The position numbers and the translations under genes are program-made. A stretch of 64,000 bases of DNA from assembly GCA_964432565.1 (NCBI GenBank), contig CAYSOA010000005.1:24022-88021 (forward strand), in the 5' to 3' direction. The notes under the pieces were generated by a model. That model saw only the letters and a list, made by a program, of their open reading frames with translations. It searched no databases and was not told the origin of the DNA. Of this stretch, positions 14,024 through 41,395 are shown piece by piece. Every line of letters begins with the position of its first letter. The stretch's first letter is position 1. This stretch comes from an uncultured Bacteriovorax sp. (GTDB lineage Bacteria > Bdellovibrionota > UBA1018).

Positions 14024-14047
14024 AAAATCCTCAAGAATTTACAGACC

Positions 14048-14076
14048 TTGACACACTTTTTCAACTTCAGTAGCGT
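14048..14076 (+). promoter_or_regulatory. Candidate sigma70-type promoter for the nuo-like set-1 cluster (divergent from mfd)
   Basis: Perfect TTGACA at 14048-14053, a 17-nt spacer, a weak -10 TAGCGT at 14071-14076, then SD AAGGAGAG and ATG 14104. Confidence 0.25.
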
Positions 14077-14103
14077 TTCTGCGCATCGGGATAAGGAGAG
14101 TCT

Positions 14104-14550
14104 ATGGCCGGGATGGCCGCAGGAAACCATGGGTGGTTAGATTACTCGATCTTGCTTTTTCTTGCTGCTTTTGCGGTGGCGTTGCCGTTGCTGCTTCAGT
14201 TCGGGGCCCGGCTGCTTCGCTCAAAAGAACTTCAGCGAGATAGTTCGAAAGAAGGCGACTGCTTTCATGTCGAGCGAGATATCCCGACGAACCAATCCAT
14301 TCATACTCGCTATTTTTCGGCGGTCCAGGTCGGATCAGCCTGGGCCCTTCCGCTCGGTCTCTTGATCCCCATCGCGCACCCCGAAGTAAAAGAGTCGATC
14401 TATGCCACGATTTCCCTGCTGACGATTTGTCTGACCATGGGGGTTGCTCTCATCTATTTGAATCGCAAGGGTGACCTGAAGTGGATGGACTCAACCGGTA
14501 ACCCCGCAGACGACCGGGACACTGACTCTGAAGAAGAGGGCGCCGTTTGA
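14104..14550 (+). CDS. NuoA-like small membrane subunit of a paralogous complex-I-like set (set 1)
   Basis: 148 aa, 3 TM, heads a cluster of nuo homologs. Similar to canonical NuoA at 23559 but without a recognisable FD(V/I)E motif. Has an acidic C-terminal tail. Confidence 0.5.
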   Translation: MAGMAAGNHGWLDYSILLFLAAFAVALPLLLQFGARLLRSKELQRDSSKEGDCFHVERDIPTNQSIHTRYFSAVQVGSAWALPLGLLIPIAHPEVKESIYATISLLTICLTMGVALIYLNRKGDLKWMDSTGNPADDRDTDSEEEGAV

Positions 14551-15071
14551 TGAAGTCCTGGATAAGTCGGAGGATCGAGACATTGACCCGCTGGGCGGAC
14601 GCGAGCGCCCTACGTTATTTTCACGTCAAGGGTCTGTGTTGTTCGGATGAGTTTACCCAGACCGTAGCGGCCCGCTATGATCTAGAGAGATTCGGAGCGA
14701 TGCAGGAGGCCGACCATCGATCTGCGGACGTTCTCGTGGTCAGTGGGGCGATCAGCAGTGCTGCTGCCGAGCATCTGAGAACCATTTACGCAGAGATGAC
14801 TTCACCCCGATGGGTGATTGCCATCGGCAGCTGCGCCTGTTCGGGAGGTCTCTTCTCCCCTTCCAATGGCGGTGAGGCTCTTGCTGGGGTTTCTTCGGTT
14901 ATTCCGGTCGACGTCTTTGTGGTGGGCTGCCCCCCTCGTCCCGAAGCGATCATCGATGGCTGGATCCTTCTTCAGAAGAAGATTCAGGGACAAGTCACCG
15001 ACAGGACGGTTCGGAAAAAGAAGCGTCTTCCCGACAACCTGCTTCTGCAGGAAGACGGAGGCCCCGGATGA
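14547..15071 (+). CDS. NuoB-like subunit (set 1) retaining N2-cluster cysteines
   Basis: Motifs GLCCSDEF, GSCACSGG and VGCPP align with canonical [17 protein letters not shown] and PGCPP. ATGA overlap with the upstream gene. Confidence 0.7.
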   Translation: MMKSWISRRIETLTRWADASALRYFHVKGLCCSDEFTQTVAARYDLERFGAMQEADHRSADVLVVSGAISSAAAEHLRTIYAEMTSPRWVIAIGSCACSGGLFSPSNGGEALAGVSSVIPVDVFVVGCPPRPEAIIDGWILLQKKIQGQVTDRTVRKKKRLPDNLLLQEDGGPG

Positions 15072-16186
15072 ACGAGGCAGTGCTGGCGCGCAGAATTTCC
15101 TGGAGGATCGGACCGTTTCACTCGGCCTTGCCAGGGCCATTCGTGCTGGATTTGGAACTGGACGGAGAAGTCATCGCGGAGGCCCGGGCGACGGCAGGGT
15201 ATGGCGCCCGCGGCATCGAGTCCGTGATGCGACGGCTGGGCTGGGAGCAGGGGATTCCCGTAATGGACAGGCTCGACCCTGATTCAGGGATCTTCGGGGA
15301 GTGGGCTTATTGCCTAGCCATCGAACGTGCAATGGACATTGAAGTACCCGCCCGGGCAGTGGCGACTCGAGTCCTTCTTGGCGAACTTGTTCGGGTTTCC
15401 GCCCATCTGGCCCAGCTTGCCAGGGTTGCCCGTGAGGCGGGCTCAGAGATTGTTTTTCACTTCATGCTTCGAGAGCGGGAGCTCCTGCTGGATCTGATCG
15501 AGCTGGTGACGGGGGCTCGTCACTCCCCGGCCTTCCTGAGGATCGGGGGAGTTCGCGCCGATGTCAGTGAGGGATTCCTTGAGCGGCTACAGGAGACGAG
15601 TCAGGTGATTCTTGGACGAGTCGCAGAATACAATGATCTCCTTACCTATAATCAGGCATTCGTTCGCCGTGTGTCGGGAAGGGCCGTTCTCTCGGAGCAG
15701 CTGATTCGCGAGCACGGAATCAGTGGGATACCGCTTCGTATCGTCGACGATTCATCCGACCTGAGGTGGAGGGGGGAGATCGGAGGATACGATATGGTGC
15801 CTCATCAGCCTGTTTCTGCAGGAAGCCCGCTAGGAATAGCGGGGGACCTTCATCATCGTTTCGTCTTCCGGCTTCAAGAGGTGATTCAGAGCATCCAGAT
15901 CTGCCGCGAACTTTGTCAGAACCTTCCGGGCGGAGATCTTCGGGCCGATGTGGATCTGGCAAGAGTTCCGGCCGGGCGCCATTCGGCCCGAGTGGAGGCA
16001 CCACGGGGGCTTTTTCAGGTCACCGTCGAGTCTGATGGGTCGGCGAGACCGAAGGCGATCGAGTTCAGCACGCCGTCCGACGCCCTATTCTCTGCCATTC
16101 CGAAGATCCTTCAAGGGGCCCCTCTCGAGGACTTGGGGCTCTGGCTTGCAAGTATCGACCTGCAGATAGGCGAGGTGGACCGATGA
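15068..16186 (+). CDS. NuoD-like subunit (set 1), divergent
   Basis: 372 aa. GPFH, GYGARGIE, RIGGVRADV, VEAPRG and C-terminal IGEVDR align with NuoD (49-kDa subunit / NiFe-hydrogenase large-subunit fold). Lacks the roughly 30-aa N-terminal extension of canonical NuoD. Confidence 0.65.
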   Translation: MNEAVLARRISWRIGPFHSALPGPFVLDLELDGEVIAEARATAGYGARGIESVMRRLGWEQGIPVMDRLDPDSGIFGEWAYCLAIERAMDIEVPARAVATRVLLGELVRVSAHLAQLARVAREAGSEIVFHFMLRERELLLDLIELVTGARHSPAFLRIGGVRADVSEGFLERLQETSQVILGRVAEYNDLLTYNQAFVRRVSGRAVLSEQLIREHGISGIPLRIVDDSSDLRWRGEIGGYDMVPHQPVSAGSPLGIAGDLHHRFVFRLQEVIQSIQICRELCQNLPGGDLRADVDLARVPAGRHSARVEAPRGLFQVTVESDGSARPKAIEFSTPSDALFSAIPKILQGAPLEDLGLWLASIDLQIGEVDR

Positions 16187-17193
16187 ATGATTGGTTCAAG
16201 CTCTGGGTGGATCGCTGTGCTAGCAGCGGAGTATCCGTTGCTCTCTGTCTATTGATTTGCGTCTATCTTGCTGTCTGGATGGATCTGAAGGTCGGTGCCG
16301 ACGTCCAGGCCCGCGTCGGGCCGAATCGAGCCGGTGCCGCCGGGATTCTGCAGCCACTTGCCTCCTGGATACGAGAGCTTCTCAAGTTCTCTCCACATAT
16401 TGGCGGTGCCGGCTTTCAGCGGAGCTGGTGGGCACCCATGATTCCTTTGGTGTTGATGATTGGATTGGTGCCGACTACCGGGGCCGGACCACTCCTTCGA
16501 GCGCCGATGTCCGTGTTTCTGGCCCTTTTTCTGGGTCTCTGCTTTTCGTGCCTGGGTCTGATCATGGGATGGCGCTCAGGGCGCCTGGAGGTGAGGTTTG
16601 CCTCCATTCGAGCGGCATCACTCGCGCTGGCCGCAACGCCGCCAGCCTTGATGGCCATCACAGTGGCCGGCCGTGCTGCGGGAGGATTTTCGTGGGAGGC
16701 CATCGACCAGGCTCAGGGAGCGCTGCCGATGCAGTGGATTGGTTTTTCGGGCGCCTCGGGGCTGCTTGCGTCGGTGATCTTTCTTCTCGCAGGGATGCTG
16801 CTCTTTCTAATGCCCCCCTTTTCAAGTACCGGTCGAAACCTCAAACTCCTGATGAGTGCGATGGTTGGACCTGTTGGAGCACGGCAGCTCTGGGTGGAGC
16901 TGTCTGTTCGTGGTGCGGCGACCTGCTGGATGCTGCTTGCCGCGCATCTTTTTTGGGGCGGATCAAGAATTCCGCTGTGGCTGGAGCAGTTTCTAGGACC
17001 TGCTTCGCTCGCCACCAGGACCGTCGAGCTAGGTGTCATCTCCGCTAAGGTTCTTCTAATCCACCTGTTGATGTCACTGATGTCGAGGATGATGCCGACG
17101 GTGCGATCGGATCAGGCGCATGACTTCGCCTGGCGAGTGTTGACTCCGGCGGCACTGCTTTCTCTTGTCATGATGAAGCTGGGGGGCGCGTGA
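16183..17193 (+). CDS. NuoH-like membrane subunit (set 1)
   Basis: RVGPNRAGAAGILQPLASWIRELLKF matches the NuoH motif (RxGPNxxGxxGLLQPxAD). Polytopic. Confidence 0.6.
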   Translation: MNDWFKLWVDRCASSGVSVALCLLICVYLAVWMDLKVGADVQARVGPNRAGAAGILQPLASWIRELLKFSPHIGGAGFQRSWWAPMIPLVLMIGLVPTTGAGPLLRAPMSVFLALFLGLCFSCLGLIMGWRSGRLEVRFASIRAASLALAATPPALMAITVAGRAAGGFSWEAIDQAQGALPMQWIGFSGASGLLASVIFLLAGMLLFLMPPFSSTGRNLKLLMSAMVGPVGARQLWVELSVRGAATCWMLLAAHLFWGGSRIPLWLEQFLGPASLATRTVELGVISAKVLLIHLLMSLMSRMMPTVRSDQAHDFAWRVLTPAALLSLVMMKLGGA

Positions 17194-17720
17194 AATACGG
17201 ATTCGCTGGCGCCTTTATCGACTATTGGGGTTCGGTCTATCGATCCATTGCCTCCCTTTATCGGGCAGGAAAGGCCGGCGTCGCTTACCTTCGAGTTCGA
17301 AGCGAGACCAAAAAGGAAGTGACGGAGCAGTATCCGGATCCAGTCTCGTCTCGATCCTCCGAGGAGCTTCCGCCGAGAACTCGTGGCAAACTAAGGAACG
17401 ACATCCTCCGATGCACCGGGTGCGGCGACTGTGTGCGGATCTGTCCAACCAAGAGCATTTCCATGGAGACCATGGAGGGTGCAAAGCCAGGCAAGCTCTG
17501 GATTTCGATCTTCAACATCGATCACGCGAGTTGCATCGCTTGTGGACTTTGCGTTGACGTCTGTGAGCCGAGATCTCTGGTCCATGAGCGGGTTCATCAA
17601 GGTGCCGCCGTCAGTATCGAGGAGCATCTCCTGAGTTTTGGCCGGGGGGCGGTGTCCGAGAGCATGAGGGAGCTCTGGAGAAAACAACGCGTATTGGAGA
17701 GTGAAGGAGACCACCTATGA
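17190..17720 (+). CDS. NuoI-like 2x[4Fe-4S] ferredoxin subunit (set 1)
   Basis: Two CxxCxxCxxxCP motifs (CTGCGDCVRICP and CIACGLCVDVCEP). TEQYPDP aligns to canonical TIQYPEE. Confidence 0.65.
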   Translation: MKYGFAGAFIDYWGSVYRSIASLYRAGKAGVAYLRVRSETKKEVTEQYPDPVSSRSSEELPPRTRGKLRNDILRCTGCGDCVRICPTKSISMETMEGAKPGKLWISIFNIDHASCIACGLCVDVCEPRSLVHERVHQGAAVSIEEHLLSFGRGAVSESMRELWRKQRVLESEGDHL

Positions 17721-18220
17721 ATTCCTGGGTGATTGGGGTCTCACTGGGGTTGCTCGCAGTTTCTGCAGCCATCGTGTCTCTTTGGCGGGAGCCCCGCGCC
17801 GGCGCGATCGCAGCCTGGGTCAATGGGTGTGCCGCCGCCTCGGTGATGCTTTTGTTTCAGTCCGAGGTTTTGGCTTTGTTTCTGGCAATCAACTCGACCA
17901 TCGTTGCGCTAGCCGCCTTCTTGAACTCGGACACGATGGCCCTCAAGCCGCCGGAGTCGCACCGGTCGCCTTCCGTGTTCCACGTGAAGAATTGGCTTTC
18001 GCTTCTGGCGAGCGCGGCGCTTGGGGTGACCGTGGTCGGAGTGTTTCGCAGCACGATTCCGGTGCCTTTTGACGAACTTGCCGAGACCACCGCAAATGCC
18101 CTTGTGGGAGCTTCAACCGAGGAGAACCATGTGAGTTACCAGCTGGTTGCCCTGTTGGGACTGGTTGCAACCGTTGGCGCGGCCGTCATTGCCAGGCCGG
18201 AGAGGCCCGAGAATGATTGA
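17717..18220 (+). CDS. NuoJ-like membrane subunit (set 1)
   Basis: 167 aa, hydrophobic with about 5 TM. Its position between the NuoI-like and NuoK-like genes matches canonical order. Confidence 0.45.
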   Translation: MNSWVIGVSLGLLAVSAAIVSLWREPRAGAIAAWVNGCAAASVMLLFQSEVLALFLAINSTIVALAAFLNSDTMALKPPESHRSPSVFHVKNWLSLLASAALGVTVVGVFRSTIPVPFDELAETTANALVGASTEENHVSYQLVALLGLVATVGAAVIARPERPEND

Positions 18221-18506
18221 AGTGTTTGGCGCGTTGTTCGGAATCGGGTTTTTCGGTTTGTTGACCCAGAGATCGCTGGTTTCGGTTTTGTTGAATCTTC
18301 AGGTCATGGTGACGTCGCTGGTCCTAGTGCTGGTGGTCTCATCTCAGACTTTTTCTCCAGTGAGTCGAGAGAGAGCGGGCCACGCAGCACTGGCGATTCT
18401 GCTGGTGTTTGGAATCCAGGTTGCCGCCGCGCTGGCTTACGCGACGCGGCTTCACTATCTGAGGCGACGATCAGGCATGGATGATCTGAAGTCGATGAGG
18501 CACTGA
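18213..18506 (+). CDS. NuoK-like membrane subunit (set 1) with both conserved glutamates replaced by glutamine
   Basis: ATG 18213 overlaps the upstream stop. MIEVFGALFGIGFFGLLTQRSLVSVLLNLQVMV aligns to canonical Nuo[11 protein letters not shown] appears at both positions that are E in canonical NuoK (31597). Confidence 0.55.
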   Translation: MIEVFGALFGIGFFGLLTQRSLVSVLLNLQVMVTSLVLVLVVSSQTFSPVSRERAGHAALAILLVFGIQVAAALAYATRLHYLRRRSGMDDLKSMRH

Positions 18507-18508
18507 GC

Positions 18509-20431
18509 ATGGCGCGACAGTTCTTTCCCTGGATTCTTGTGCTCGCAATCAGTCTCTCCACGGTTTTCGCAATGCTCGGCGGTGGAATTCTGAATCGCTG
18601 GAGGACGCTTTTGAGCGGGCTGTGCTGGGCCGCCTTTCTGGGTTTAATCGCGGCGGCGATGATCATCATGACGGATGGAGGTGGACCGGCGCAATGGGCT
18701 GTGGATTTCATGGCCATTCCGATCAGCGCCGATGCTGCGAGGCTTGGGGTTGAGAACTCGCTGGTAGGCGTTCTGGTCTGCTGGCTGATCGCCCTGGTCT
18801 ACGGTTACGTTTTTTTTCTGGATCCCGCGTTTGGGGACAGATCGTCGGATTTCCGGCCCCAGGGGGGCAGCCACATTCAGGGCTCTGCGTGCCTCGGGAT
18901 GGTTGCCGTCGCGTTGGCCTGGTTTTCCTCGAGTTACTGGACCCTGCTCATGGCACAGGCTCTTTCAGTTTTGGCAGGGTGGACGGTGCTCTCAAGCCTC
19001 GCAAACTCCCGACTTTCTTCGGCGCCGGCATTTGCCCAGATCTCGGTGACCTTTCTTCGAGAGAAGGCTGGCTCCATGGCGCTTTTGATCCTGGGAGGGG
19101 GAATTTGCGCTTCGTCCGGCGCTTCGTTGGACTGGACCCGCACATCGCTTCATCTTCTTCCCGTCTCCGGTGTCGCGCTGATTCTCTTTGGGTGTCTTCT
19201 TCAGATGGGGATGTTTCCCGCAATCAGCTGGAATACTCGCCTGACAGGAGGGTGCAGCCTCCCGTCGAGCGTTCGGCTCCTATTGGTCAACCCGGCACAA
19301 TGGGTCTCTTTTGTCGTTGTTCTTCGTCTGTTCGGGACAGGTACCGTCCAGTTTCAATCGCTAGCCATGCCGATTCTTGTGGCAGTTCTCTTGACTACCC
19401 TTGTGGCGTTAGTCGCCAAACCTGCTCAGGCGGCGCTCACCCATGTCAGTGCCTCCCTCTCGGGACTGGCAGTGGCGGTACTGCTTCTTGCGGGAGTCCG
19501 GCAAGGAGCAGCGTTTTTCCTGACAAGCCAGCTGCTCCTCTGGGGGGCAGCCCTATTCCTGCGTCGCCCGTCCACAGGAACCCGTCTGGGACGGATCGAT
19601 CACTGGGTGGCAGGGCTATTGCCTCTCGCAATCTGCGCGGGGCCCGGAACGGTTTCTGCCGCGGCGTTGCTCGCATTATTGGAGGGATCGAGATCCTCTA
19701 TCATCCTCTCCCTTTCTGTGGCGGCCTGGATATTCTTCTCGCTTGCGATGGTTCGAGCGATGGCTCTGGGTGCTGCACCGACCGAGGGCACAGTCGAACA
19801 GGAGCTCGGCATGACGGATCGAACCTCGGCAGGATGGCGGGCGACGCCGGCCGTTGTTTTGGCCCTGATTTCGACGTCGATTCTCTGGACGGGAGACCTT
19901 GTGGGACGATTTTCGGGCCACGAGTTCGCCCCCGTCGGGCCAAACTGGTCGGGGGCGCTCTTTGGCACCGAGACCCTCGCTTTCCGATCAGCGCCGATGG
20001 ACTCGATCGTCTGGGGCTGGATGCTCACTCTCGTGGTTTTGGTGTCAGTCGATTCGGGCAAGCGCCTCGCACGAGCTGAATTGGGATTTCTTCGACTGGC
20101 GTCGGACGGCTATCGCGTTTCGATGCTCGTCGACCGCACCCTTCAACTGATGGTGCGAGCGCTGCTTCGCGCGGACCGTGGTCTGGCCATGATTGAGGCG
20201 CACGCGACAGACCTGGCACTGGCGCGAGGGTTCGGCTGGGTCTGTAGCGCGACTGCCGCTGCAGATCGCTGGTTGAGAGATCGGTTCGATCGGTTGGTCC
20301 GTGGAGCCATTGAAATACCGGCAAAGGGTGTTCAGTTACTGCAGGCGGGAAGTGTGCAGTTCTACATTCTGTTTGCGGTTGGATTCGTTTTGGCCATGTT
20401 GCTACATTTCTGGAGCCATCTGAACAGCTGA
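18509..20431 (+). CDS. NuoL-like antiporter-family subunit (set 1), highly divergent
   Basis: 640 aa, about 14+ TM, with a long C-terminal region. Motif LAGWTVLS aligns to canonical FLGWEGVG (TM5 Glu absent). Confidence 0.5.
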   Translation: MARQFFPWILVLAISLSTVFAMLGGGILNRWRTLLSGLCWAAFLGLIAAAMIIMTDGGGPAQWAVDFMAIPISADAARLGVENSLVGVLVCWLIALVYGYVFFLDPAFGDRSSDFRPQGGSHIQGSACLGMVAVALAWFSSSYWTLLMAQALSVLAGWTVLSSLANSRLSSAPAFAQISVTFLREKAGSMALLILGGGICASSGASLDWTRTSLHLLPVSGVALILFGCLLQMGMFPAISWNTRLTGGCSLPSSVRLLLVNPAQWVSFVVVLRLFGTGTVQFQSLAMPILVAVLLTTLVALVAKPAQAALTHVSASLSGLAVAVLLLAGVRQGAAFFLTSQLLLWGAALFLRRPSTGTRLGRIDHWVAGLLPLAICAGPGTVSAAALLALLEGSRSSIILSLSVAAWIFFSLAMVRAMALGAAPTEGTVEQELGMTDRTSAGWRATPAVVLALISTSILWTGDLVGRFSGHEFAPVGPNWSGALFGTETLAFRSAPMDSIVWGWMLTLVVLVSVDSGKRLARAELGFLRLASDGYRVSMLVDRTLQLMVRALLRADRGLAMIEAHATDLALARGFGWVCSATAAADRWLRDRFDRLVRGAIEIPAKGVQLLQAGSVQFYILFAVGFVLAMLLHFWSHLNS

Positions 20432-20442
20432 GGACGCAGACA

Positions 20443-22035
20443 GTGACCCTACCCCTACTGACAGCGATGATTCTAACGCCCCTTGCAGGTGCCGCGGTGC
20501 AGGCGATGACGCCGAGGCAACCGTTGTCGCGGCTGCTAGCCCTCTCCAGCAGCTTGATTTCAGCCATCATCGGTTTCGCGGTGCTGGCTGGGGCTTTTTC
20601 GGCCGATGACCCCGAATCCTTTCCGGAAAGATTCTCCTGGGTGGGATCCTATGCGATCTCCTACGATCTCGCCGTCGATGGCATGGCTCGGATTGCCGTA
20701 CTCATCGTCAGTGTCCTGTTTCCGGTCCTGATTGCCGCCGAATGGCGCCGATCGTCAGGGTTCCGGGGGTTTTACGCCCTTTTGCTCGTTCTTCAGGGTG
20801 CACTTCTGGGAACGGTCTGCGCTCAGGATCTTTTTCTTCTGTTCTTCTTCTGGGGCCTTTCCTCAGTGCCTGTGTTTTTTCTGGTCGGCGTGTGGGGGGC
20901 GGACGGACGTGAGGCGGCCGCCTTTCGAACGCTGGTCACCTCAGCGGCAGGTAATGCGCTGTTCTTCGGAGCGTTGATGCTGGTCTACCACGCGAGAGAC
21001 CCTCACACCTTTTCGATCGCCGAGCTCACTGGAGGATTGCTTCCAGAGCGGTCGATTTCGGTGGCTGGAGTCTCATTTTCTCTCGCGCATGTTTCTTTCC
21101 TGTTGGTCTGCCTTGGCGTGGCCCTCCGAGTCCCGGTCTGGCCGTTCCACGGCTGGTTCACTCGGCTTGCCGATGCCGCTCCTCCTACCGCGGCTGTTGC
21201 CGTTGCCGCCGCGATTGTTCCCTGCGGCGTGCAGATTCTTACCAGGCTGGGTCACCAGCTCTTTCCCAACAGCTTTTCAAATTATTCTGACGTGATCGTG
21301 CTGGTAGGGCTCGTCAATTTGATCATTGGTGCGCTCGCTGCGTTCGGGCAGCGAAAGCCGACGTCGCTTTTCTCGAGCCTCGTGCTTGCGGAGGTCGGTA
21401 TCTACCTGGTGGGCCTGGGGAGCAGCCATCCCAGTGCATTGCTAGGAACAGTTTATCATCAGCTTTGTAGTGCCCTGGCTCTGGCAGTGCTCGGGCTGCT
21501 ATTCGGCTCGATTTACCAGAAGAGTCCTCAGATCGACCTTCTGAGTCAGCGCTCGGGATCGGCTGCGCTCATGAGCGATGCACCTGTTGCGGGTGTCGTG
21601 ATGGCCTTGTCGCTGGCGACGCTGGCAGGGGTTCCCGGGCTGGGGGGGTTCATCGGACAGAGTCTGGTGCTCATGGGCGGGTTCGTGCGCTCGCCGATGA
21701 TACTGGCGCTGGTCGGCATGTCGGTTCTTCTGATCGGCATATGCCTTTTTGGAACGTACCGGGTGCTGTTTCTTGGTGGGGGGACCCAGGGGCGTTCCGG
21801 GGAGTCTCACGAGCTTTCATTCCGAGAGAAAACTTACCTCATCCCTCTGGTGGTTCTGATGGTTGCTCTGGGTGTTTATCCCAAGCCCCTCCTCGACGTC
21901 ATTCACCCGGCGACGGATCGTCTGGTAGTTTCGGGCACCGATGTTCCTCGTGATGTCGGTGGAGCACCAGACTCCGGGATCTTGCCGAACGGTGAGCAGC
22001 CCCCCATCGTCGAGTCGTCGGAAGCCCGGGAATGA
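20443..22035 (+). CDS. NuoM-like antiporter-family subunit (set 1), divergent
   Basis: 530 aa polytopic. FFWGLSSVPVFFLVGVWG aligns to canonical FWEFMLIPMYFLIGIWG. ALRVPVWPFHGWF aligns to AIKVPLFPLHTWL. Confidence 0.5.
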   Translation: MTLPLLTAMILTPLAGAAVQAMTPRQPLSRLLALSSSLISAIIGFAVLAGAFSADDPESFPERFSWVGSYAISYDLAVDGMARIAVLIVSVLFPVLIAAEWRRSSGFRGFYALLLVLQGALLGTVCAQDLFLLFFFWGLSSVPVFFLVGVWGADGREAAAFRTLVTSAAGNALFFGALMLVYHARDPHTFSIAELTGGLLPERSISVAGVSFSLAHVSFLLVCLGVALRVPVWPFHGWFTRLADAAPPTAAVAVAAAIVPCGVQILTRLGHQLFPNSFSNYSDVIVLVGLVNLIIGALAAFGQRKPTSLFSSLVLAEVGIYLVGLGSSHPSALLGTVYHQLCSALALAVLGLLFGSIYQKSPQIDLLSQRSGSAALMSDAPVAGVVMALSLATLAGVPGLGGFIGQSLVLMGGFVRSPMILALVGMSVLLIGICLFGTYRVLFLGGGTQGRSGESHELSFREKTYLIPLVVLMVALGVYPKPLLDVIHPATDRLVVSGTDVPRDVGGAPDSGILPNGEQPPIVESSEARE

Positions 22036-23522
22036 ATGCACTGATTTTTCTGCTGCCGGAAATCTACCTCGTTGCGACGGCCCTTGGACTGGTCGTCGCA
22101 GAGAGTTCGCATCATGGTGAGCGAGTGAGGCTGGCGCTGCCCACCAGTCTCCTAGGAATTTCGGGAGCATTGATTCAGGTGCTTTTGTCCTACCGCGGTG
22201 GCCCCACCCAGATCTTTGCCGGCACCTTGACCGTCGATGGTTTCACCCTATTCTTCAAGATGCTCTTTCTGGCGCTAGCGGCAATTGTCGTGACCTCCGC
22301 CTGTATCGGGCACGAAATTCCACGAAGGCTGCGTTCGGAGTTCTGCTCGTTGGCGCTTCTTGGAACCGTGGCATTGATGCTGGCGGCAAGTTCCTCCAAT
22401 CTTTTCGTCACCGTTCTGGCACTTCAACTGGCCGGGTGTGTGGGCTATTTTCTGGCCGGATTTCAGAAAGAGAGTGCCCGGTCGGCCGAAGCTTCGGTGA
22501 AGTGGATGATGTCTTCCCTGGTTTCGGGGGTGTTTCTGCTTCTTGGGGCGATGGTTCTGTTCCTGATGACCGGAACCGTGAACCTCTATGAGCTCAGCCA
22601 GCTTCTGTCGGCCGGGGGATATTCAGCCCGCGAGGCGGTTCTGGTTTTTTCGATCATTTTTCTGGGTCTCAGCATGCCGATGATGATCTTCCCAGGACAT
22701 CTTTGGGCGGCTGATGTCCTGCAGGGGGCCAATACTGCGGCAGGGACCTACCTTGCTGCCGGCCTCAGAGCGGCCACCTTCGCCGTTGCCTCCAGGGTTT
22801 GGGTCATTGTTTTTTCCAGCGCCAACGGCGACTCGGGCCGCTGGCTGCCGATGGGAGGATGGGACTGGACCCGCTGGTTGGGGTTTAGTGCGGCAATGAC
22901 TTTGGTGCTTCCCGCCCTGATGAGTGTGCGCCAGCAGAGTGCAAAACGGCTGCTGGCCTGCGTCGCCACAGTTCAGGGTGGCTTTCTGCTGCTTGGCCTG
23001 CTGGTCCTCGAAGAGATCGGGCTTGCAGCCGTGCTCTTCGGACTGCTGGTGGAACTTTTGTCCTTTGGTGGTCTGATGTTCGTGCTGTCATTGGCGGTGT
23101 CACGGAGCGGCTCAGATGAGCTCGACCGGCTTCGGGGCTGCCTTCGTGGTCGTCCATGGGAATCCGTGGCACTTCTGCTTTGCTCGATCGCATGGGTGGG
23201 CCTGCCACCCTTTGCAGGGCAGATCGGAAGGTTCGCCTTGATGGGGGCTGCAGTCCGGCGGGAGTGGTTCATTCTTGCCTTCGTGGGGCTTCTGGCGACC
23301 GTTTTAACGGTTGGGGCAATGGGGCGCCTCATGCTGACGGTGCTGGACCTGGGCGGTGAGTCGCGATCCCGGGTGGTTCAGGGGAGCGCTGGCCTCGAGC
23401 GCACTCCTTTCGATGTGCGGAGCTTTCTTGTCGGAGTTCTGGTGCCGTTGGCTACGGTCACCATTTTGGCGGACTGGCTCTTGCGGTGGACCAGCCATTC
23501 CCTGAAGTTTATTTTCTGGTAG
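22032..23522 (+). CDS. NuoN-like antiporter-family subunit (set 1), divergent
   Basis: 496 aa polytopic. N-terminal LPEIYLVATALGL is like NuoN. VLALQLAGCVGYFLAGF aligns to canonical IALELMSISVYVLVGF. Confidence 0.5.
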   Translation: MNALIFLLPEIYLVATALGLVVAESSHHGERVRLALPTSLLGISGALIQVLLSYRGGPTQIFAGTLTVDGFTLFFKMLFLALAAIVVTSACIGHEIPRRLRSEFCSLALLGTVALMLAASSSNLFVTVLALQLAGCVGYFLAGFQKESARSAEASVKWMMSSLVSGVFLLLGAMVLFLMTGTVNLYELSQLLSAGGYSAREAVLVFSIIFLGLSMPMMIFPGHLWAADVLQGANTAAGTYLAAGLRAATFAVASRVWVIVFSSANGDSGRWLPMGGWDWTRWLGFSAAMTLVLPALMSVRQQSAKRLLACVATVQGGFLLLGLLVLEEIGLAAVLFGLLVELLSFGGLMFVLSLAVSRSGSDELDRLRGCLRGRPWESVALLLCSIAWVGLPPFAGQIGRFALMGAAVRREWFILAFVGLLATVLTVGAMGRLMLTVLDLGGESRSRVVQGSAGLERTPFDVRSFLVGVLVPLATVTILADWLLRWTSHSLKFIFW

Positions 23523-23558
23523 CTCGCTCTTCTTCCGCTGCGCTATAACCCAGAAGCA

Positions 23559-23918
23559 ATGGAATACATTCCGGTTCTGATCCTGATGGCCGTCGGTACG
23601 GCGGTCGGGGTGGGCGCGATGACGTTGTCGGCCCTCCTTGGACCCAAAGCCCCTAATCGACGCAAGAATATGCCGTTCGAGTGTGGTGTCGAGCCGCATG
23701 GCGATGCACGACACCGATTCTCGGTGCGTTTCTATCTTGTTGCGATTTTGTTTCTACTTTTTGATGTCGAGGCACTGTTCTTCTATCCATGGGCGGTTGT
23801 TTATAAGAAATATCTGAGCATCAACGCCTTCATTCTTTTTGAGATGGCGGCGTTCGTGCTCATCCTTCTGGTGGGTTATCTCTACGTCCTGGGCAAAGGT
23901 GCCCTCGAGTGGGATTAG
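23559..23918 (+). CDS. nuoA: NADH-quinone oxidoreductase subunit A
   Basis: Canonical NuoA motifs PFECGVEP and [15 protein letters not shown]. Confidence 0.9.
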
Positions 23919-23955
23919 ACCCCGTCTTCGAATTTCATCGAGAGGCGCAACAAGT

Positions 23956-24468
23956 ATGTCTAAAGACGGATCATCCAGCTTCCTGACAACCAAACTCGAG
24001 GCGATTGTGGACTGGGGTCGCAAGAATGCCCTGTGGCCGCTGCCCTTCGGTACCAGCTGCTGCGGCATCGAGATGATGGCCACTTTTGCTGCGGACTACG
24101 ATATCGGCCGCTTTGGTGCCGAGGCCCTGCGCTTCTCCCCGAGGCAGGCGGACCTTCTGATCGTTGCAGGGATCGTGAACGCCAAGATGGCCCCGGTTCT
24201 CAAGAATATCTACGACCAGATGGCCGATCCCAAGTGGGTTATCTCAATGGGGGCCTGCGCGTCATCGGGAGGCATTTTCAACGTGTATAGTGTCACCCAG
24301 GGTATCGACACCATCATCCCAGTGGACGTCTACGTTCCGGGTTGTCCTCCGGCGCCCGAAGGGGTCCTTCATGGGCTGATGCGCCTTCAGGAGCTGATCC
24401 AGAAGGGCGAGACCCATCACCACCGATGCGAGCGGGCCCGACGTGCAGGAAAGGAGGCCCAGTCATGA
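23956..24468 (+). CDS. nuoB: NADH-quinone oxidoreductase subunit B
   Basis: [22 protein letters not shown] and [10 protein letters not shown] 23956 follows SD GAGG, whereas the ORF-track start 23839 adds a non-homologous extension. Confidence 0.9.
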
Positions 24469-25043
24469 GGGGTGCAGACATTCGGACTCCCGTGTCGACA
24501 GTTTACGGCGATTTCTCGAAGAAGTTCGCAGAGACTTGGAAGTCTCAGGTTCAGGAGCTGCAACAGAGATTCGGGGCCGTCATTGAAGAGGTTCGATGGC
24601 CCGGTGTTTACCCCACCGATGTTCCCATTGTCTTTGTGGCTCGCGAGTCGATCGTCGATGTGCTTCGGGTCCTTAAGGAAGAGTCCGCGTTCCGGTATGA
24701 CTTTCTGGCAGACATCACGGCGACGGATGAGGAAGTAGAGCCGCGCTTCGAGGTGGTCTACAACCTGGCGTCGATTGCATCGGGGTCGCGGATTCGCGTC
24801 AAGGTTCGAGCGCGTGAAGACGAGCAAGTCCCGTCTGTGACCGTTGTTTGGGCCGGAGCAGACTGGGCTGAGCGCGAGGTATGGGACATGTTTGGGATCC
24901 GCTTTCGCGGCCACCCGGATCTGCGCCGGATTCTGATGGATGAGCGCTGGGAGGGACATCCCCTGCGCAAGGATTACCCTCTTCGTGGCTATCAGCTTTT
25001 TCCAGATACCCAGCCCATCAACGTCGAACTGCTCAAGGATTGA
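24465..25043 (+). CDS. nuoC: NADH-quinone oxidoreductase subunit C
   Basis: 30-kDa-subunit family ([22 protein letters not shown]). ATG 24465 follows SD AAGGAGG and overlaps the nuoB stop. Confidence 0.85.
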
Positions 25044-25046
25044 TCG

Positions 25047-26318
25047 ATGGAACAGCAAAGACCGCATGGAGAGTTCGGGCTTCCCGCATCTGACAACTAT
25101 ACGATCAGCGTGGATGTTCCAGCGCATGAGCACGATCCGGATGACCTTTGGAAGGATTCGAGGGTTTTCGTCAATATCGGCCCCACCCACCCAGCCATGC
25201 ACGGCGCATTGCGGATGTGCGCCCGGTTGAATGGCGAAACGATCGAAAAGTCCTATTGCGAGTTTGGCTACACACACCGGGCAAAAGAGAAGCTCGGAGA
25301 GAATCGCACCTACCACAACTTTATCGTTTATACGGACCGGCTGAACTATTGCTCGGCACTGATCAACAATGTGACCTATGCCATGGCGGTGGAGCGCCTC
25401 ATGGGCATTGAGGTTCCCGATCGCGCCGTGTGGATTCGCATGATCTGCACCGAGATGGCTCGCGTCATCGATCACTTGATTTGTGTTGGCGTCAACGCGC
25501 TCGATCTCGGCGCTTTTTCTTTCTTCCTGTATGGCTTTCATCAGCGAGAAGAGGCCTACACCCTGATCGAGAAGATTTGTGGAGCGCGCCTGACGACCTC
25601 CTACACCCGAATCGGCGGTTTGATGGCGGATGCTCCCGCAGGCTGGGAGAAGGAAGTCAAGGACTGGGTCATTCGTACCCGGAAGACAGTTCAAGAGATG
25701 GACTCTCTTCTGACCAATAATCGCATCTGGTGCGACCGCACCCAGGGTGTCGGGGTATTCACGAAAGATCAGTGCATGAAGTACAGCTATTCGGGGCCGA
25801 ATGCCCGGGCGGCCGGTATCAATCGCGACCTCCGTCGCGATCAGCCTTCCATGTTCTACGACAAGGTCGAGTTTGATGTCCCTGTCGGAAAGAATGGCGA
25901 CGTCTTTGATCGTTACATGGTCCGAATGGCCGAGATCTTTCAGTCTCTCAACATCATCGCCCAGTGCGCGGAAAAGATGCACCCCGGGCCGATCTGGTCC
26001 GAGGACAAGCGAATCCGCATTCCGGACAAGGACGTCGTTCACAACACGATGGAAGGCCTGATCCACCACTTCAAGTTCTTCATGACGGGCTTCGACGTTC
26101 CTGCTGGTGAGGCGTACACGAGCTTCGAGGCGACCAATGGCGAGCTCGCTTTCTATATTGTCAGCAAGGGTGGACCGAGAGCCCATCGTATGCGAATCCG
26201 CGGACCATCGGTTTGGCACTACCAGGGCCTGAGCGAGATGTCTGAAGGGGCGAAGATCGCCGACATGGTTGCGGCGCTCGGTTCGATCAATATCATCGCA
26301 GGCGAGCTGGATCGCTGA
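25047..26318 (+). CDS. nuoD: NADH-quinone oxidoreductase subunit D
   Basis: 423 aa with GPTHPAMHG, RLNYC, RIGGLMAD and a C-terminal IIAGELDR. Confidence 0.9.
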   Translation: MEQQRPHGEFGLPASDNYTISVDVPAHEHDPDDLWKDSRVFVNIGPTHPAMHGALRMCARLNGETIEKSYCEFGYTHRAKEKLGENRTYHNFIVYTDRLNYCSALINNVTYAMAVERLMGIEVPDRAVWIRMICTEMARVIDHLICVGVNALDLGAFSFFLYGFHQREEAYTLIEKICGARLTTSYTRIGGLMADAPAGWEKEVKDWVIRTRKTVQEMDSLLTNNRIWCDRTQGVGVFTKDQCMKYSYSGPNARAAGINRDLRRDQPSMFYDKVEFDVPVGKNGDVFDRYMVRMAEIFQSLNIIAQCAEKMHPGPIWSEDKRIRIPDKDVVHNTMEGLIHHFKFFMTGFDVPAGEAYTSFEATNGELAFYIVSKGGPRAHRMRIRGPSVWHYQGLSEMSEGAKIADMVAALGSINIIAGELDR

Positions 26319-26329
26319 GGAGGAAGACG

Positions 26330-30598: not shown

Positions 30599-30600
30599 AG

Positions 30601-31616: not shown

Positions 31617-31911
31617 ACCCTGGGTCGTGCTTTCGCTTTCGGCTGCAATCTTTTTTATTGGGCTTTTTGGCCTGGTGGTGCGCCGAAACCTGCTCATCAT
31701 CATGATGTCGATCGAGCTCATGCTGAACGCCGTAAATCTCTCTTATGTGAGTTTTTCGGCCCAGTTGTCCTCGATGATCGGCCAGATGTCGGTGTTTTTC
31801 ATCATTGTCGTGGCTGCAGCCGAGGCCGCCGTCGGCCTTGGACTGGTCATCGCGCTTTACCGCACCCTCAAGACCGTCGACACCGACGACATCACTCTCC
31901 TAAAGGACTGA
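31597..31911 (+). CDS. nuoK: NADH-quinone oxidoreductase subunit K
   Basis: 104 aa with the conserved glutamates in MSIELMLNA and AAAEAAVG. Confidence 0.85.
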
Positions 31912-31915
31912 TGCC

Positions 31916-35423: not shown

Positions 35424-35434
35424 AGGGATTTGAA

Positions 35435-40057: not shown

Positions 40058-41395
<1,338 letters not shown>

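What the first reader, a model, noticed from the sequence alone, without database searches (positions are those of the whole stretch)
14104..23522. Ten-gene paralogous complex-I-like cluster (A,B,D,H,I,J,K,L,M,N homologs) lacking NuoC and the NADH-oxidising NuoEFG module
Directly upstream of a complete canonical nuoA-N operon lies a second, far more divergent set of nuo homologs in the same gene order. All ten ORFs are intact and joined by ATGA-type stop/start overlaps, so this is not pseudogene decay. There is no gene between the NuoB-like and NuoD-like genes, so no NuoC, and no E/F/G. Known 11-subunit complex-I-like enzymes keep NuoC. Ehr-type complexes lose the N2 cysteines, which are retained here. 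The set therefore does not fit either class cleanly and may be an undescribed complex-I-derived membrane module.
Basis: partly seen in the sequence, partly recalled or inferred. Interest (0 to 1): 0.85.

Follow-up and report, generated by a model that had tools for sequence, protein, structure and literature searches.

The report
Pump-dead complex I paralog cluster
Next to its normal respiratory complex I genes, this Bdellovibrionota bacterium keeps a second, selection-maintained set of ten complex-I genes that retains the iron-sulfur wire but has lost the quinone-binding residues and essentially every proton-pumping residue, so it is a complex-I-shaped machine that cannot work as complex I.

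Summary
Ten translationally coupled + strand genes (14104-23522) encode NuoA, B, D, H, I, J, K, L, M and N homologs. There is no NuoC or NuoEFG, and a canonical nuoA-N operon follows 36 nt downstream. The missing NuoC is not the main point. The cluster belongs to a family found only in Bdellovibrionota and always at the same locus (mfd | set 2 | canonical nuo). Deeper relatives have 11 genes including an eroding NuoC, which was lost at least twice. NuoD is the short form typical of 11-subunit enzymes, so set 2 is not a recent copy of the local operon.

Across the whole family the quinone ligands (NuoD His38, Tyr87, Asp139) and the proton-path residues of NuoA, H, J, K, L, M and N are replaced, for example Glu to Gln and Lys to Arg, Gln or Pro. 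All 12 Fe-S cysteines and the structural charges are kept. dN/dS is 0.05-0.2, so these are not pseudogenes. The acceptor pocket is remodelled, with a new conserved His in NuoD and a new Asp in NuoB.

Best reading: a complex-I-shaped Fe-S complex that does not pump, probably co-expressed with canonical complex I. Its acceptor and role are unknown. I found no description in the literature.

The parts
14024..14103 (+). Intergenic region between divergent mfd and the A-like gene. It is the presumed promoter and RBS region of set 2.
   Evidence: One search shows TTGACA-like and GGAG elements by eye. The consensus scan reports no strong + strand site here, so the promoter assignment is an inference.
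14104..14550 (+). A2: NuoA-like protein, 148 aa, three predicted TM helices and an acidic C-terminal tail. The canonical TM2 Asp79/Glu81 (E. coli numbering) are replaced by hydrophobic residues or Pro.
   Evidence: Weak PF00507 match (E 0.014 here, 2.9e-4 in the L004 ortholog). Alignment. dN/dS 0.20.
14547..15071 (+). B2: NuoB-like protein, 174 aa. All four N2 cysteines are kept, including the tandem CC. The chamber-lining CCxIEMM motif is changed to CCxDE(F/V). The RxSPRQ loop Arg and Ser are lost. There is an extra basic C-terminal tail of about 20 aa in the clade lacking NuoC.
   Evidence: PF01058 2.7e-26 and TIGR01957. Cysteines kept in 19/19 family members, Asp34 in 17/19. Tail.
15068..16186 (+). 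D2: NuoD-like protein, 372 aa, short form without the 21-aa insert. His38 is replaced by Pro, Tyr87 by Pro and Asp139 by Glu (Ala in most of the family). His131 is a family-specific residue at the position of T. thermophilus Phe147. There are no NiFe cysteine motifs.
   Evidence: PF00346 4.4e-46. End-to-end match to the 366-372-aa NuoD/FpoD models. Alignments.
16183..17193 (+). H2: NuoH-like protein, 336 aa. The E-channel and TM5-6 loop acidic residues (E. coli E157, E216, E220, E228, E241) are lost. Structural R46, K70, K274 and D295 are kept.
   Evidence: PF00146 1.8e-26..
17190..17720 (+). I2: NuoI-like 2x[4Fe-4S] ferredoxin subunit, 176 aa. All eight N6a/N6b cysteines are kept.
   Evidence: TIGR01971 4.3e-17 and Fer4 families. 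8/8 cysteines in 16/16 family members.
17717..18220 (+). J2: NuoJ-like protein, 167 aa. The TM3 motif YAGA is replaced (Tyr59 to Ser).
   Evidence: Assigned by position and alignment. Orthologs in L004 and L050 hit PF00499.
18213..18506 (+). K2: NuoK-like protein, 97 aa. Both membrane glutamates (E36, E72) are replaced by Gln.
   Evidence: PF00420 9.4e-10.. Start codon chosen.
18509..20431 (+). L2: extremely diverged NuoL-like protein, 640 aa. E144, K229 (to Gln), H254, K342, K399 and D400 are all lost. The C-terminal lateral-helix/TM16 motif is its best-conserved part.
   Evidence: No Pfam or PDB sequence hit. hhalign against canonical NuoL gives 96.2%, E 2.5e-9, aligned end to end. Alignments.
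20443..22035 (+). M2: NuoM-like protein, 530 aa. E144 to Gly, K234 to Arg, K265 to Pro, E407 to Gln.
   Evidence: PF00361 1.1e-29 and TIGR01972 3.8e-74..
22032..23522 (+). N2: NuoN-like protein, 496 aa. E133 to Gln, K217 to Pro, K247 to Arg, K395 to Arg.
   Evidence: PF00361 1.1e-38 and TIGR01770 2.4e-55..
23559..36970 (+). Context: canonical 14-gene nuoA-N operon. It starts 36 nt after the N2 stop with no terminator-like site between them. It keeps every residue that set 2 has lost and supplies the only NuoC and NuoEFG at this locus.

Best explanation
The ten genes encode a second, complex-I-shaped membrane complex ('set 2'). Its modules are B2-D2-I2 (Q-module), H2-A2-J2-K2, and L2-M2-N2.

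**Origin**
- Set 2 is the local member of a vertically inherited family found only in Bdellovibrionota.
- The family descends from an 11-subunit (nuoABCDHIJKLMN, short-NuoD) complex-I-like enzyme.
- It is always encoded immediately upstream of the canonical nuoA-N operon.

**What is shown**
- The family keeps the architecture: gene order, structural loop charges, and the NuoL lateral-helix anchor.
- It keeps the full N6a-N6b-N2 iron-sulfur wire.
- The quinone-headgroup ligands in NuoD (His38, Tyr87, Asp139) are replaced.
- The chamber-lining residues of NuoB are replaced.
- The E-channel acids of NuoH, A, J and K are replaced.
- The TM5 Glu, TM7 Lys, TM8 Lys/His and TM12 Lys/Glu of all three antiporter-like subunits are replaced.
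- The genes remain under clear purifying selection.

**What is inferred**
- The complex assembles but cannot pump protons and cannot reduce quinone in the canonical way.
- The acceptor pocket is remodelled rather than simply degraded. It has a family-specific His in D2 at the Phe147 position and an Asp in B2 next to the N2 cysteine pair. My preferred reading is therefore an energetically uncoupled redox module. It would pass electrons from a soluble donor, or from the neighbouring N-module, through N2 to a non-canonical and more polar acceptor.
- It is probably co-transcribed with canonical complex I.
- NuoC is dispensable for this complex and has eroded or been lost repeatedly. In NuoC-less lineages such as this window, the canonical NuoC may substitute, or the extended B2 tail may compensate.

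The confidence of 0.7 applies to the core claim: a selection-maintained derivative of an 11-subunit complex I that does not pump and does not reduce quinone canonically, with NuoC lost secondarily. The sub-claim that it is still redox-active with a different acceptor deserves about 0.45.
For: **Anatomy**
- Gene content and translational coupling.

**Family and synteny**
- 13 GTDB species plus metagenome contigs all show uvrA-pgm-pdxA-surA-surA-mfd | set 2 | canonical nuoA.
- This holds down to 32% D2 identity.
- An exhaustive search finds about 34-45 representatives (50%-identity clusters) with the same motif changes, and a sharp boundary to canonical NuoD.

**Origin**
- D2 lacks the 21-aa insert present in the local canonical NuoD.
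- It forms a monophyletic clade (60/60 bootstraps) next to short-type His/Tyr-bearing NuoDs.
- Set-2 codon usage matches the rest of the genome: Nc 52.3 against 51.0.

**Residue losses, checked in register against E. coli and the window's own canonical subunits**
-.
- Structural charges are retained while buried functional ones are lost.
- In D2, the only canonical residues conserved at >=90% that the family lost are His38, Tyr87 and one N-terminal Asn.

**Fe-S ligands**
- N2: 4/4 cysteines in 19/19 members. N6a/b: 8/8 in 16/16.

**Remodelled pocket**
- His131 is present in 30/34 representatives, where canonical proteins have L/F/M/I.
- B2 Asp34 is present in 17/19, where canonical proteins have Ile/Val. 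The RxSPRQ Arg is lost.

**Selection**
- dN/dS is 0.05-0.29 and 0.06-0.22 in two more genome pairs. Canonical genes give 0-0.095.

**L2 identity**
- L2 is a full-length NuoL homolog.

**Co-transcription**
- The gap to nuoA is 36 nt with no terminator-like site. The gaps are similarly short in all loci.

**NuoC**
- NuoC2 is present in the deeper relatives (L004/L014, L006, L011, L012, L013, L015, L016, L017, L019, L050) and absent from the window clade, from L049/L051 and from L018.
- Where present it evolves fastest and is sometimes truncated.
Against: - There is no expression, proteomic or biochemical evidence. Assembly, redox activity and lack of pumping are inferred from sequence alone.
- The residues at the His38 and Tyr87 positions vary within the wider family (P/V/N/M/L/Q and P/S/A/G/T). 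That pattern fits an inactive site as well as a new one.
- The reason for keeping about 1,670 aa of L2/M2/N2 under purifying selection is unexplained if they transport nothing.
- No candidate electron donor or acceptor gene is linked to the cluster.
- Some 'ancestral' Nuo complexes (Sulfolobus, Nautiliales, Desulfurobacteriales) also lack His38/Tyr87 (PMC4758237). The Q-site state alone therefore does not prove loss of function.
- The structure prediction of L2 failed (pLDDT 33.8).
- The NJ tree has only moderate support for the placement of the NuoC-less lineages (33/60 and 42/60).
Confidence: 0.7

Rival explanations
1. Structural or regulatory pseudo-complex. Set 2 has no catalytic turnover at all. 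It is kept as a scaffold, assembly partner or modulator of the canonical complex I encoded downstream, in the way dead paralogs regulate active enzymes. The Fe-S clusters are retained only because B2 and I2 need them to fold.
For: - The substitutions are isosteric (Glu to Gln, Lys to Arg) and preserve structure while abolishing protonation chemistry.
- Structural charges and the L2 lateral-helix anchor are conserved.
- Residues at the His38 and Tyr87 positions vary across the family.
- The cluster is always adjacent to the canonical operon and probably co-transcribed with it.
- No donor or acceptor gene is linked.
Against: - The new chamber residues are strongly conserved: D2 His131 in 30/34 and B2 Asp34 in 17/19. 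All 12 Fe-S cysteines are invariant over very deep divergence. Both suggest the redox site still matters.
- Set-2 codon bias is lower than canonical, and its dS is higher. That argues against strict 1:1 stoichiometric partnership.
- No precedent is known to me.
Confidence: 0.3
2. Hybrid isoform. Set-2 subunits assemble with the canonical NuoC and the NuoEFG N-module from the adjacent operon. The result is an uncoupled NADH dehydrogenase that re-oxidises NADH without building proton-motive force.
For: - Set 2 has no input module of its own, and NuoC2 has been lost repeatedly.
- The only NuoC/EFG genes at the locus lie in the operon 36 nt downstream, with no terminator between.
- The Fe-S wire from N6a to N2 is intact.
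Against: - The canonical quinone ligands are gone, so NADH:quinone activity is unlikely without a new acceptor site.
- Deeper relatives still have their own NuoC2.
- B2/D2/I2 are only 28-48% identical to the canonical subunits, so the docking surfaces for NuoG and NuoC may not be preserved.
- This cannot be tested with the tools available here.
Confidence: 0.2
3. Conventional energy-converting 11-subunit-type enzyme: a ferredoxin- or other donor:quinone oxidoreductase that still pumps ions, merely divergent in sequence.
For: - Gene order and content match nuoAB(C)DHIJKLMN.
- NuoD is the short type found in 11-subunit enzymes.
- N2, N6a and N6b are intact.
Against: - Every residue class known to be needed for coupling is replaced throughout the family. 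This covers NuoD His38/Tyr87/Asp139, NuoH E-channel acids, NuoA D79/E81, NuoK E36/E72, NuoJ Y59, and the TM5/TM7/TM8/TM12 residues of L, M and N.
- The flanking motifs align in register.
- The window's own canonical set keeps all of these residues.
Confidence: 0.05
4. Decaying remnant: a pseudogene cluster that has not yet accumulated stop codons.
For: - Set-2 proteins evolve much faster than canonical ones. D2 is 61% identical between the window and L001, where D1 is 93% identical.
- L2, A2 and J2 are no longer recognised by Pfam.
Against: - All ten ORFs are intact and translationally coupled.
- dN/dS is 0.05-0.29 in three genome pairs, similar to mfd at 0.16.
- The cluster is retained intact at the same locus in more than 20 genomes and contigs, down to 32% identity.
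- Losses are restricted to functional residues, while structural residues and Fe-S ligands are invariant.
Confidence: 0.02
5. Ehr-type complex or group-4 [NiFe]-hydrogenase relative rather than a complex I derivative.
For: - D2 matches MbhL (E 1.4e-33) and MbsL (E 1.8e-27) over its full length.
- Like Ehr, it lacks the catalytic residues of its parent family.
Against: - D2 scores far better against complex I 49-kDa/NuoD chains (E 1e-51 to 1e-42) and against NuoD/FpoD models.
- It has no RxCGxC or DPCxxC NiFe motifs.
- The cluster has the complete complex-I membrane set, NuoA/H/J/K/L/M/N with a NuoL lateral helix.
- The tandem-Cys N2 ligation typical of complex I is kept.
Confidence: 0.03

Closest known systems
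11-subunit complex-I-like enzymes (nuoABCDHIJKLMN, 'NUO11': Chlorobi, Bacillota such as Desulfitobacterium, cyanobacterial/plastid NDH-1, archaeal Fpo)
   Same: - The gene order is the same and there is no NuoEFG.
- NuoD is the short form without the 21-aa insert.
- The N2, N6a and N6b ligands are kept.
- Deeper relatives of this cluster carry all 11 genes.
- The nearest non-family NuoDs are of this type.
   Different: - Described NUO11 enzymes keep the Q-module function and the pumping residues (PMC11238625).
- Here the quinone ligands and the proton-path residues of all seven membrane subunits are replaced. NuoC is missing in this window.
- This cluster always coexists in tandem with a full 14-subunit operon.
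Canonical 14-subunit complex I (NuoA-N), i.e. the neighbouring operon at 23559-36970
   Same: - It has homologous subunits in the same order.
- It has the tandem-Cys N2.
- It has NuoL with a lateral helix and TM16 anchor.
   Different: - Identity is only 28% for D, and L is not detectable by BLAST.
- Set 2 has no N-module and no NuoC.
- The Q site and pump residues are lost.
- Set 2 evolves 3-10 times faster.
'Ancestral' Nuo complexes lacking His38/Tyr87/Asp139 (Sulfolobus, Nautiliales, Desulfurobacteriales) discussed by Degli Esposti 2015 (PMC4758237)
   Same: NuoD lacks the quinone-binding triad, and NuoEFG is absent.
   Different: - Those are the organism's main complex and are interpreted as pre-quinone forms.
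- I have no evidence that they lack the antiporter-like Lys/Glu set.
- The family here nests next to His/Tyr-bearing short NuoDs and has a specific 'xLPGP' loop plus His131.
[quoted passage not shown] 2013 (cited from memory and via PMC4758237)
   Same: Both are derivatives of the complex I / group-4 hydrogenase superfamily that have lost the catalytic residues of the large subunit and have no known function.
   Different: - Ehr derive from hydrogenases and have fewer membrane subunits.
- This cluster has the full complex-I membrane arm and complex-I-type NuoD and NuoB.
Cyanobacterial NDH-1MS (NdhD3/NdhF3/CupA CO2-uptake complex)
   Same: It is a precedent for repurposing antiporter-like subunits of a complex-I-like enzyme for something other than plain proton pumping. 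It is also one of several isoforms in a single cell.
   Different: - NDH-1MS swaps only the distal subunits.
- It keeps quinone reduction and proton pumping in the core.
- It adds CupA/CupS.
- Here the whole Q and P modules are duplicated and neutralised, and no accessory gene is linked.

Membership tests
Canonical respiratory complex I (14-subunit NADH:quinone oxidoreductase) | NADH-oxidising N-module (NuoE, F, G) encoded with the core | tested here: not met
   No E/F/G homolog lies between 14104 and 23522. The only copies are in the downstream operon.
Canonical respiratory complex I (14-subunit NADH:quinone oxidoreductase) | Quinone headgroup ligands NuoD His38 and Tyr87 (T. thermophilus numbering) with Asp139 | tested here: not met
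   His38 is Pro, Tyr87 is Pro and Asp139 is Glu here (Ala/Ser in most of the family). All three are absent from the whole family.
Canonical respiratory complex I (14-subunit NADH:quinone oxidoreductase) | Proton-translocation residues: TM5 Glu, TM7 Lys, TM8 Lys/His and TM12 Lys/Glu in NuoL/M/N; NuoK E36/E72; NuoH E-channel acids; NuoA D79/E81 | tested here: not met
   These residues are replaced across the family. The one partial exception is NuoN Lys395, which is Arg in this window but kept as Lys in 8 of 13 members. The alignment was checked in register against E. coli and the window's canonical set.
Canonical respiratory complex I (14-subunit NADH:quinone oxidoreductase) | Fe-S clusters N2 (tandem Cys in NuoB) and N6a/N6b (NuoI) | tested here: met
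   4/4 cysteines in 19/19 B2 and 8/8 in 16/16 I2.
[quoted passage not shown] | Gene set nuoABCDHIJKLMN, including NuoC (free or fused to NuoD), without NuoEFG | tested here: not met
   The window has ten genes. No NuoC domain or remnant was found. Syntenic relatives do have NuoC2, so the family as a whole meets this feature but this locus does not.
[quoted passage not shown] | Short-form NuoD (about 366-380 aa, no 21-aa insert) grouping with NUO11-type NuoD | tested here: met
   D2 matches the 366-aa and 372-aa NuoD/FpoD models end to end. It has 1-2 residues where long-type NuoD has 21. In the NJ tree it sits next to short-type NuoDs.
[quoted passage not shown] | Conserved Q-module function and proton-pumping module (as stated for described members, PMC11238625) | tested here: not met
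Group-4 [NiFe] hydrogenase (Mbh, Ech, Hyc) | NiFe-binding cysteine motifs (RxCGxC near the N-terminus, DPCxxC at the C-terminus) in the large subunit | tested here: not met
   D2 has 'ARGIE' and 'IGEVDR' at these positions. Hydrogenase-like representatives show 'CGIC', which D2 lacks.
Ehr complexes | Hydrogenase-derived large and small subunits lacking NiFe ligands, with a reduced membrane module. The definition is from memory of Marreiros et al. 2013. | tested here: inconclusive
   No Ehr reference sequences were available. D2 scores much higher against complex I NuoD than against MbhL/MbsL, and the full A/H/J/K/L/M/N set is present. Both points argue against membership.
Pseudogene cluster | Relaxed selection (dN/dS near 1), frameshifts or stop codons, patchy retention | tested here: not met
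   dN/dS is 0.05-0.29. ORFs are intact and synteny is conserved in more than 20 loci.

The most novel reading that the evidence does not exclude
An entire ten- to eleven-subunit respiratory machine has been converted into a 'pseudo-complex I' and then maintained by selection across a bacterial lineage. The Fe-S wire and the architecture are preserved. The quinone site has been rebuilt into a polar pocket (new His in NuoD, new Asp in NuoB). The whole charged proton-transfer axis has been neutralised. If correct, this is a new functional class derived from complex I. It would be either a redox enzyme for a non-quinone acceptor that uses the membrane arm for something other than proton pumping, or a dedicated structural or regulatory partner of canonical complex I.
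Probability: 0.5. Interest if true: 0.9.

Novelty: new variant of a known kind. Interest (0 to 1): 0.78.

Why it matters
How quinone chemistry drives proton pumps 200 Å away in complex I is still debated. The question is usually probed with single point mutants.

This family is a natural experiment. Evolution has removed the quinone ligands, the E-channel and every antiporter-like Lys/Glu pair at once. It has kept the fold, the lateral helix and the Fe-S chain under purifying selection.

- It shows which features of the scaffold are needed for stability rather than for catalysis.
- It shows that NuoC can be dispensed with.
- It implies an unknown, selectable function for a complex-I-shaped particle that does not pump.
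- It gives a concrete target for cryo-EM, EPR and proteoliposome assays.
- It is a caution for metabolic annotation of Bdellovibrionota MAGs, where pipelines label these genes as 'NADH-quinone oxidoreductase subunit D'.

Tried and rejected
**Searches and predictions that gave nothing useful**
- Searched for a cryptic NuoC. Pfam at E<=1 on all ten proteins and on the alternative-frame ORF 14818-15282 gave nothing. tblastn with ten NuoC2 proteins against 14000-24000 gave no hit better than E = 0.13.
- L2 against PDB sequences, as a single sequence and as a 9-sequence profile: no hit at E<=1.
- A first hhalign with 9 L2 sequences and the tool's settings gave only 48% probability. A 14-sequence alignment gave 96%.
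- A word-indexed homolog search with the L2 profile returned only two proteins, because hydrophobic words saturate the candidate list.
- AlphaFold2 of L2 was restricted to a 2-sequence alignment and failed (mean pLDDT 33.8). No fold search was attempted.

**Hypotheses rejected**
- Recent tandem duplication of the local operon. Rejected because D2 is short-type and groups with NUO11-type NuoDs, while D1 is long-type.
- Recent horizontal acquisition. Rejected because codon usage and GC match the genome and the locus is syntenic across the lineage.

**Literature**
- Seven full-text searches found no description.
- The Peredibacter paper (PMC13147790) reports two nuo clusters in Bdellovibrionota. 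These are nuoAHJKLMN plus a 14-gene cluster at 37-41% identity, which is not this system.

**Other**
- The consensus promoter/terminator scan was uninformative. Terminator-like sites were not above the shuffled expectation.

Full report
**1. Observation**

The window carries ten intact + strand ORFs between 14104 and 23522.

- Pfam and NCBIfam identify NuoB (PF01058), NuoD (PF00346), NuoH (PF00146), NuoI (two 4Fe-4S motifs, TIGR01971), NuoK (PF00420), NuoM (TIGR01972) and NuoN (TIGR01770).
- The first gene gives only a weak NuoA match: PF00507 at E 0.014 here and 2.9e-4 in an ortholog.
- The sixth gene is NuoJ-like by position. Orthologs hit PF00499.
- The 640-aa eighth protein has no Pfam hit and no PDB sequence hit, even as a profile. 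A 14-sequence family alignment nevertheless matches canonical NuoL end to end (hhalign 96.2%, E 2.5e-9, 538 columns).
- Six gene junctions are 4-nt stop/start overlaps. J/K overlaps by 8 nt, with the K start at ATG 18213.
- There is no NuoE, F or G.
- No NuoC domain is found in any product, in the alternative-frame ORF at the B/D junction, or by tblastn with NuoC proteins from relatives.
- A canonical nuoA-N operon with NuoC, NuoEFG and all functional residues follows at 23559-36970.

**2. A conserved, lineage-restricted family**

A homolog search with the NuoD-like protein (D2) gave a small family at 39-100% identity, then a sharp drop to canonical NuoD at about 33%.

- Every contig I could inspect has the same layout: uvrA, pgm, pdxA, surA, surA and mfd on the minus strand, then set 2, then canonical nuoA onward.
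- A scan of one genome per GTDB species found 13 carriers. All are MAGs labelled Bdellovibrionota, Bdellovibrionia, Bacteriovoracaceae or Oligoflexia.
- An exhaustive HMM search of 1.84 billion representatives showed the family is larger than first seen. About 34-45 clusters at 50% identity share the same motif changes.
- Three of the most distant members (32-37% identity) again show identical synteny.
- The boundary to canonical NuoD is sharp at the motif level.
- In these carriers the family is vertically inherited. I have not tested cultured Bdellovibrio and related genera.

**3. NuoC is a secondary loss**

Relatives at 37-47% D2 identity encode a NuoC (PF00329, 132-183 aa) between B2 and D2.

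- NuoC2 is absent from the window clade, from L049/L051 and from L018.
- In an NJ tree of D2 the family is monophyletic (60/60 bootstraps).
- The window clade groups weakly with L049/L051 (33/60). L018 nests among the NuoC-containing lineages (42/60).
- This implies at least two independent losses.
- Where present, NuoC2 is the fastest-evolving subunit: 63% identity where D2 is 83%. It is truncated in some lineages.
- In the window clade, B2 carries an extra basic C-terminal tail of about 20 aa.

The ancestral cluster therefore had 11 genes. 'No NuoC' describes this sub-lineage, not the system.

**4. Origin**

- D2 lacks the 21-residue insert present in the local canonical NuoD. It matches the 366-372-aa NuoD/FpoD models end to end.
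- Its nearest non-family relatives are short-type NuoDs that carry His38 and Tyr87. Named examples come from Ignavibacteriaceae and Chloroflexi.
- D2 is only 28% identical to D1.
- Set-2 codon usage and GC match the rest of the window (Nc 52.3 against 51.0). The canonical operon is more biased (Nc 46.4) and has lower dS.

Set 2 is therefore an old resident derived from an 11-subunit-type enzyme. It is neither a recent duplicate of the neighbouring operon nor a recent import.

**5. The central finding: catalytic residues are gone, the scaffold is kept**

I aligned each subunit with E. coli and with the window's own canonical proteins. The family shows the following changes.

| Subunit | Canonical residues | State in the family |
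|---|---|---|
| NuoD | His38 | Pro |
| NuoD | Tyr87 | Pro/Ser/Ala |
| NuoD | Asp139 | Ala/Ser/Glu |
| NuoA | D79/E81 | hydrophobic |
| NuoH | E157, E216, E220, E228, E241 | lost |
| NuoJ | Y59 | Ser |
| NuoK | E36/E72 | Gln/Gln |
| NuoL | E144, K229 (to Gln), H254, K342, K399, D400 | all lost |
| NuoM | E144 | Gly/Ala/Ser |
| NuoM | K234 | Arg (14/14) |
| NuoM | K265 | Pro |
| NuoM | E407 | Gln/Asn |
| NuoN | E133 | Gln/Leu |
| NuoN | K217 | Gln/Pro |
| NuoN | K247 | Arg |
| NuoN | K395 | Arg, or kept as Lys |

- The flanking motifs align in register. Examples are 'DLFLLFFFW[G]' against 'DMFLFFFFW[E]', and 'AL[R]VPVWPFHGW' against 'AV[K]MPVVPLHGW'. These are therefore not alignment artefacts.
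- Structural charges are invariant: NuoN D70, E104, K158, D229, R256 and R296; NuoM D135 and E464; NuoH R46, K70, K274 and D295.
- The C-terminal lateral-helix/TM16 motif is the best-conserved part of L2.
- All four N2 cysteines (19/19 members) and all eight N6a/N6b cysteines (16/16) are kept.
- In NuoD, the only canonical residues conserved at >=90% that the family lost are His38, Tyr87 and one N-terminal Asn.

**6. Not pseudogenes**

| Comparison | Set 2 dN/dS | Control or canonical dN/dS |
|---|---|---|
| Window vs a 90%-identical relative (L047) | 0.05-0.29 | mfd 0.16 |
| L001 vs L048 | 0.06-0.15 | canonical 0-0.06 |
| L008 vs L001 | 0.07-0.22 | canonical 0-0.095 |

Set-2 proteins evolve several-fold faster than canonical ones. 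D2 is 61% identical between the window and L001, where D1 is 93%. Constraint is nevertheless clearly present.

**7. The acceptor pocket is remodelled**

- At the position of T. thermophilus Phe147, 30 of 34 family representatives have His. Canonical NuoDs have Leu, Phe, Met or Ile there. Phe147 is listed among the quinone-chamber residues in PMC4758237. I checked the numbering against that paper's S36, H38, M85, Y87, T135, D139 and F146.
- In NuoB, the hydrophobic stretch after the tandem cysteines (CCxIEMM) becomes CCxDE(F/V), with Asp in 17/19.
- The Arg and Ser of the RxSPRQ loop are lost.
- New invariant Arg43, Glu47 and Arg131 appear.
- The residues at the former His38 and Tyr87 positions themselves vary across the wider family.

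This pattern suggests a more polar pocket next to N2 rather than random decay. It does not identify a substrate.

**8. Mechanism**

Shown:
- A complex-I-type gene set with an intact Fe-S wire.
- No canonical quinone ligands.
- No proton-transfer residues.
- Purifying selection.
- Fixed position upstream of canonical nuo, with a 36-nt gap and no terminator-like site.

Inferred:
- The subunits assemble into an L-shaped particle that cannot pump and cannot reduce quinone in the canonical way.
- It is probably co-transcribed with complex I.

My preferred sub-hypothesis (about 0.45) is an uncoupled redox module with a non-canonical acceptor. The main alternative (about 0.3) is a catalytically silent structural or regulatory partner of complex I. 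A hybrid that borrows the canonical NuoC and NuoEFG (about 0.2) overlaps with both. It would explain the repeated NuoC2 loss and the lack of an input module.

A conventional pumping enzyme, a pseudogene cluster and an Ehr/hydrogenase identity are each unlikely (see the rival explanations). Why roughly 1,670 residues of neutralised antiporter-like subunits stay under selection is unexplained.

**9. Comparison with known systems and novelty**

[quoted passage not shown] Set 2 shares their gene order, short NuoD and lack of NuoEFG. It fails the functional criteria, and at this locus it also lacks NuoC.
- Loss of His38/Tyr87 has precedents in some 'ancestral' Nuo complexes (PMC4758237). Repurposing of antiporter-like subunits has a precedent in cyanobacterial NDH-1MS.
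- I found no report of a complex-I-type cluster in which the entire proton-transfer axis is neutralised while the genes remain under selection.
- Annotation pipelines simply call these proteins NADH-quinone oxidoreductase subunits, or 'hypothetical'.
- I classify it as a new variant of a known kind. There is a substantial chance that it represents a new functional class.

**10. Limits**

- All functional statements rest on sequence.
- No expression data were available.
- The structure prediction for L2 failed.
- The tree is distance-based, with moderate support for internal nodes.
- The Ehr comparison relies on memory of the literature.
- The taxonomic breadth is known only from MAG labels.

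Noticed in passing
window 28077-29477 (+): The canonical NuoG is only 466 aa. It has the 2Fe-2S, 4Fe-4S and Nqo3 ferredoxin-like domains but only a stub of the molybdopterin-like C-terminal domain. The Acidimicrobiia NuoGs fetched for comparison are about 830 aa.
   Followed up: partly
window 23559-36970 compared with 14104-23522: The canonical nuo genes have stronger codon bias (Nc 46.4, GC3 0.71) and markedly lower dS than set 2 (Nc 52.3, GC3 0.65) and than other genes in the window (Nc 51.0). This suggests much higher expression of the canonical operon, even though the two are probably co-transcribed.
   Followed up: partly
window 37005-40049 (+): A 1014-aa protein made almost entirely of TPR repeats lies directly after canonical nuoN. 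Seryl-tRNA synthetase follows at 40064-41395. It is not known whether the TPR protein is linked to complex I assembly.
   Followed up: no
L049 (GCA_023657465.1, JAGTJX010000001.1, 909-kb contig): This MAG is labelled Xanthomonadaceae. It nevertheless carries the Bdellovibrionota-type locus (uvrA-pgm-pdxA-surA-surA-mfd | set 2 | nuo), and its canonical NuoD is 76% identical to the window's. The taxonomic label is probably wrong.
   Followed up: no
L049 13265-14854 and L051 13263-14855: In the most divergent NuoC-less clade, L2 is shortened to about 530 aa. It has lost roughly the first 50 residues and several internal segments but keeps the C-terminal 'Q..D.QYYLIFGIG...LLHF' anchor. B2 is cut down to 136 aa.
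   Followed up: partly
L021, L023, L025, L042, L043 (Aenigmatarchaeota and uncultured archaeon MAGs): Short NuoD-like genes (about 30-33% identity to D2) are followed only by NuoH- and NuoI-like genes. BLAST found no B, A, J, K, L, M or N homologs in the held flanks. This may be a minimal D-H-I module in DPANN archaea.
   Followed up: no
window 14995-15071 (B2 C-terminus) and orthologs in L001, L003, L010: B2 proteins of the NuoC-less window clade share a basic C-terminal extension of about 20 aa (for example RKKKRLPDNLLLQEDGGPG). It is absent from NuoC-containing relatives and may compensate structurally for the missing NuoC.
   Followed up: partly
N2 (window 22032-23522) and orthologs: N2 has family-specific conserved acidic and basic residues that canonical NuoN lacks: E10, E24, E30, R33 and E377 (12-13 of 13 members). 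M2 has conserved Q118, H188 and N292. Their location and role are unknown.
   Followed up: no
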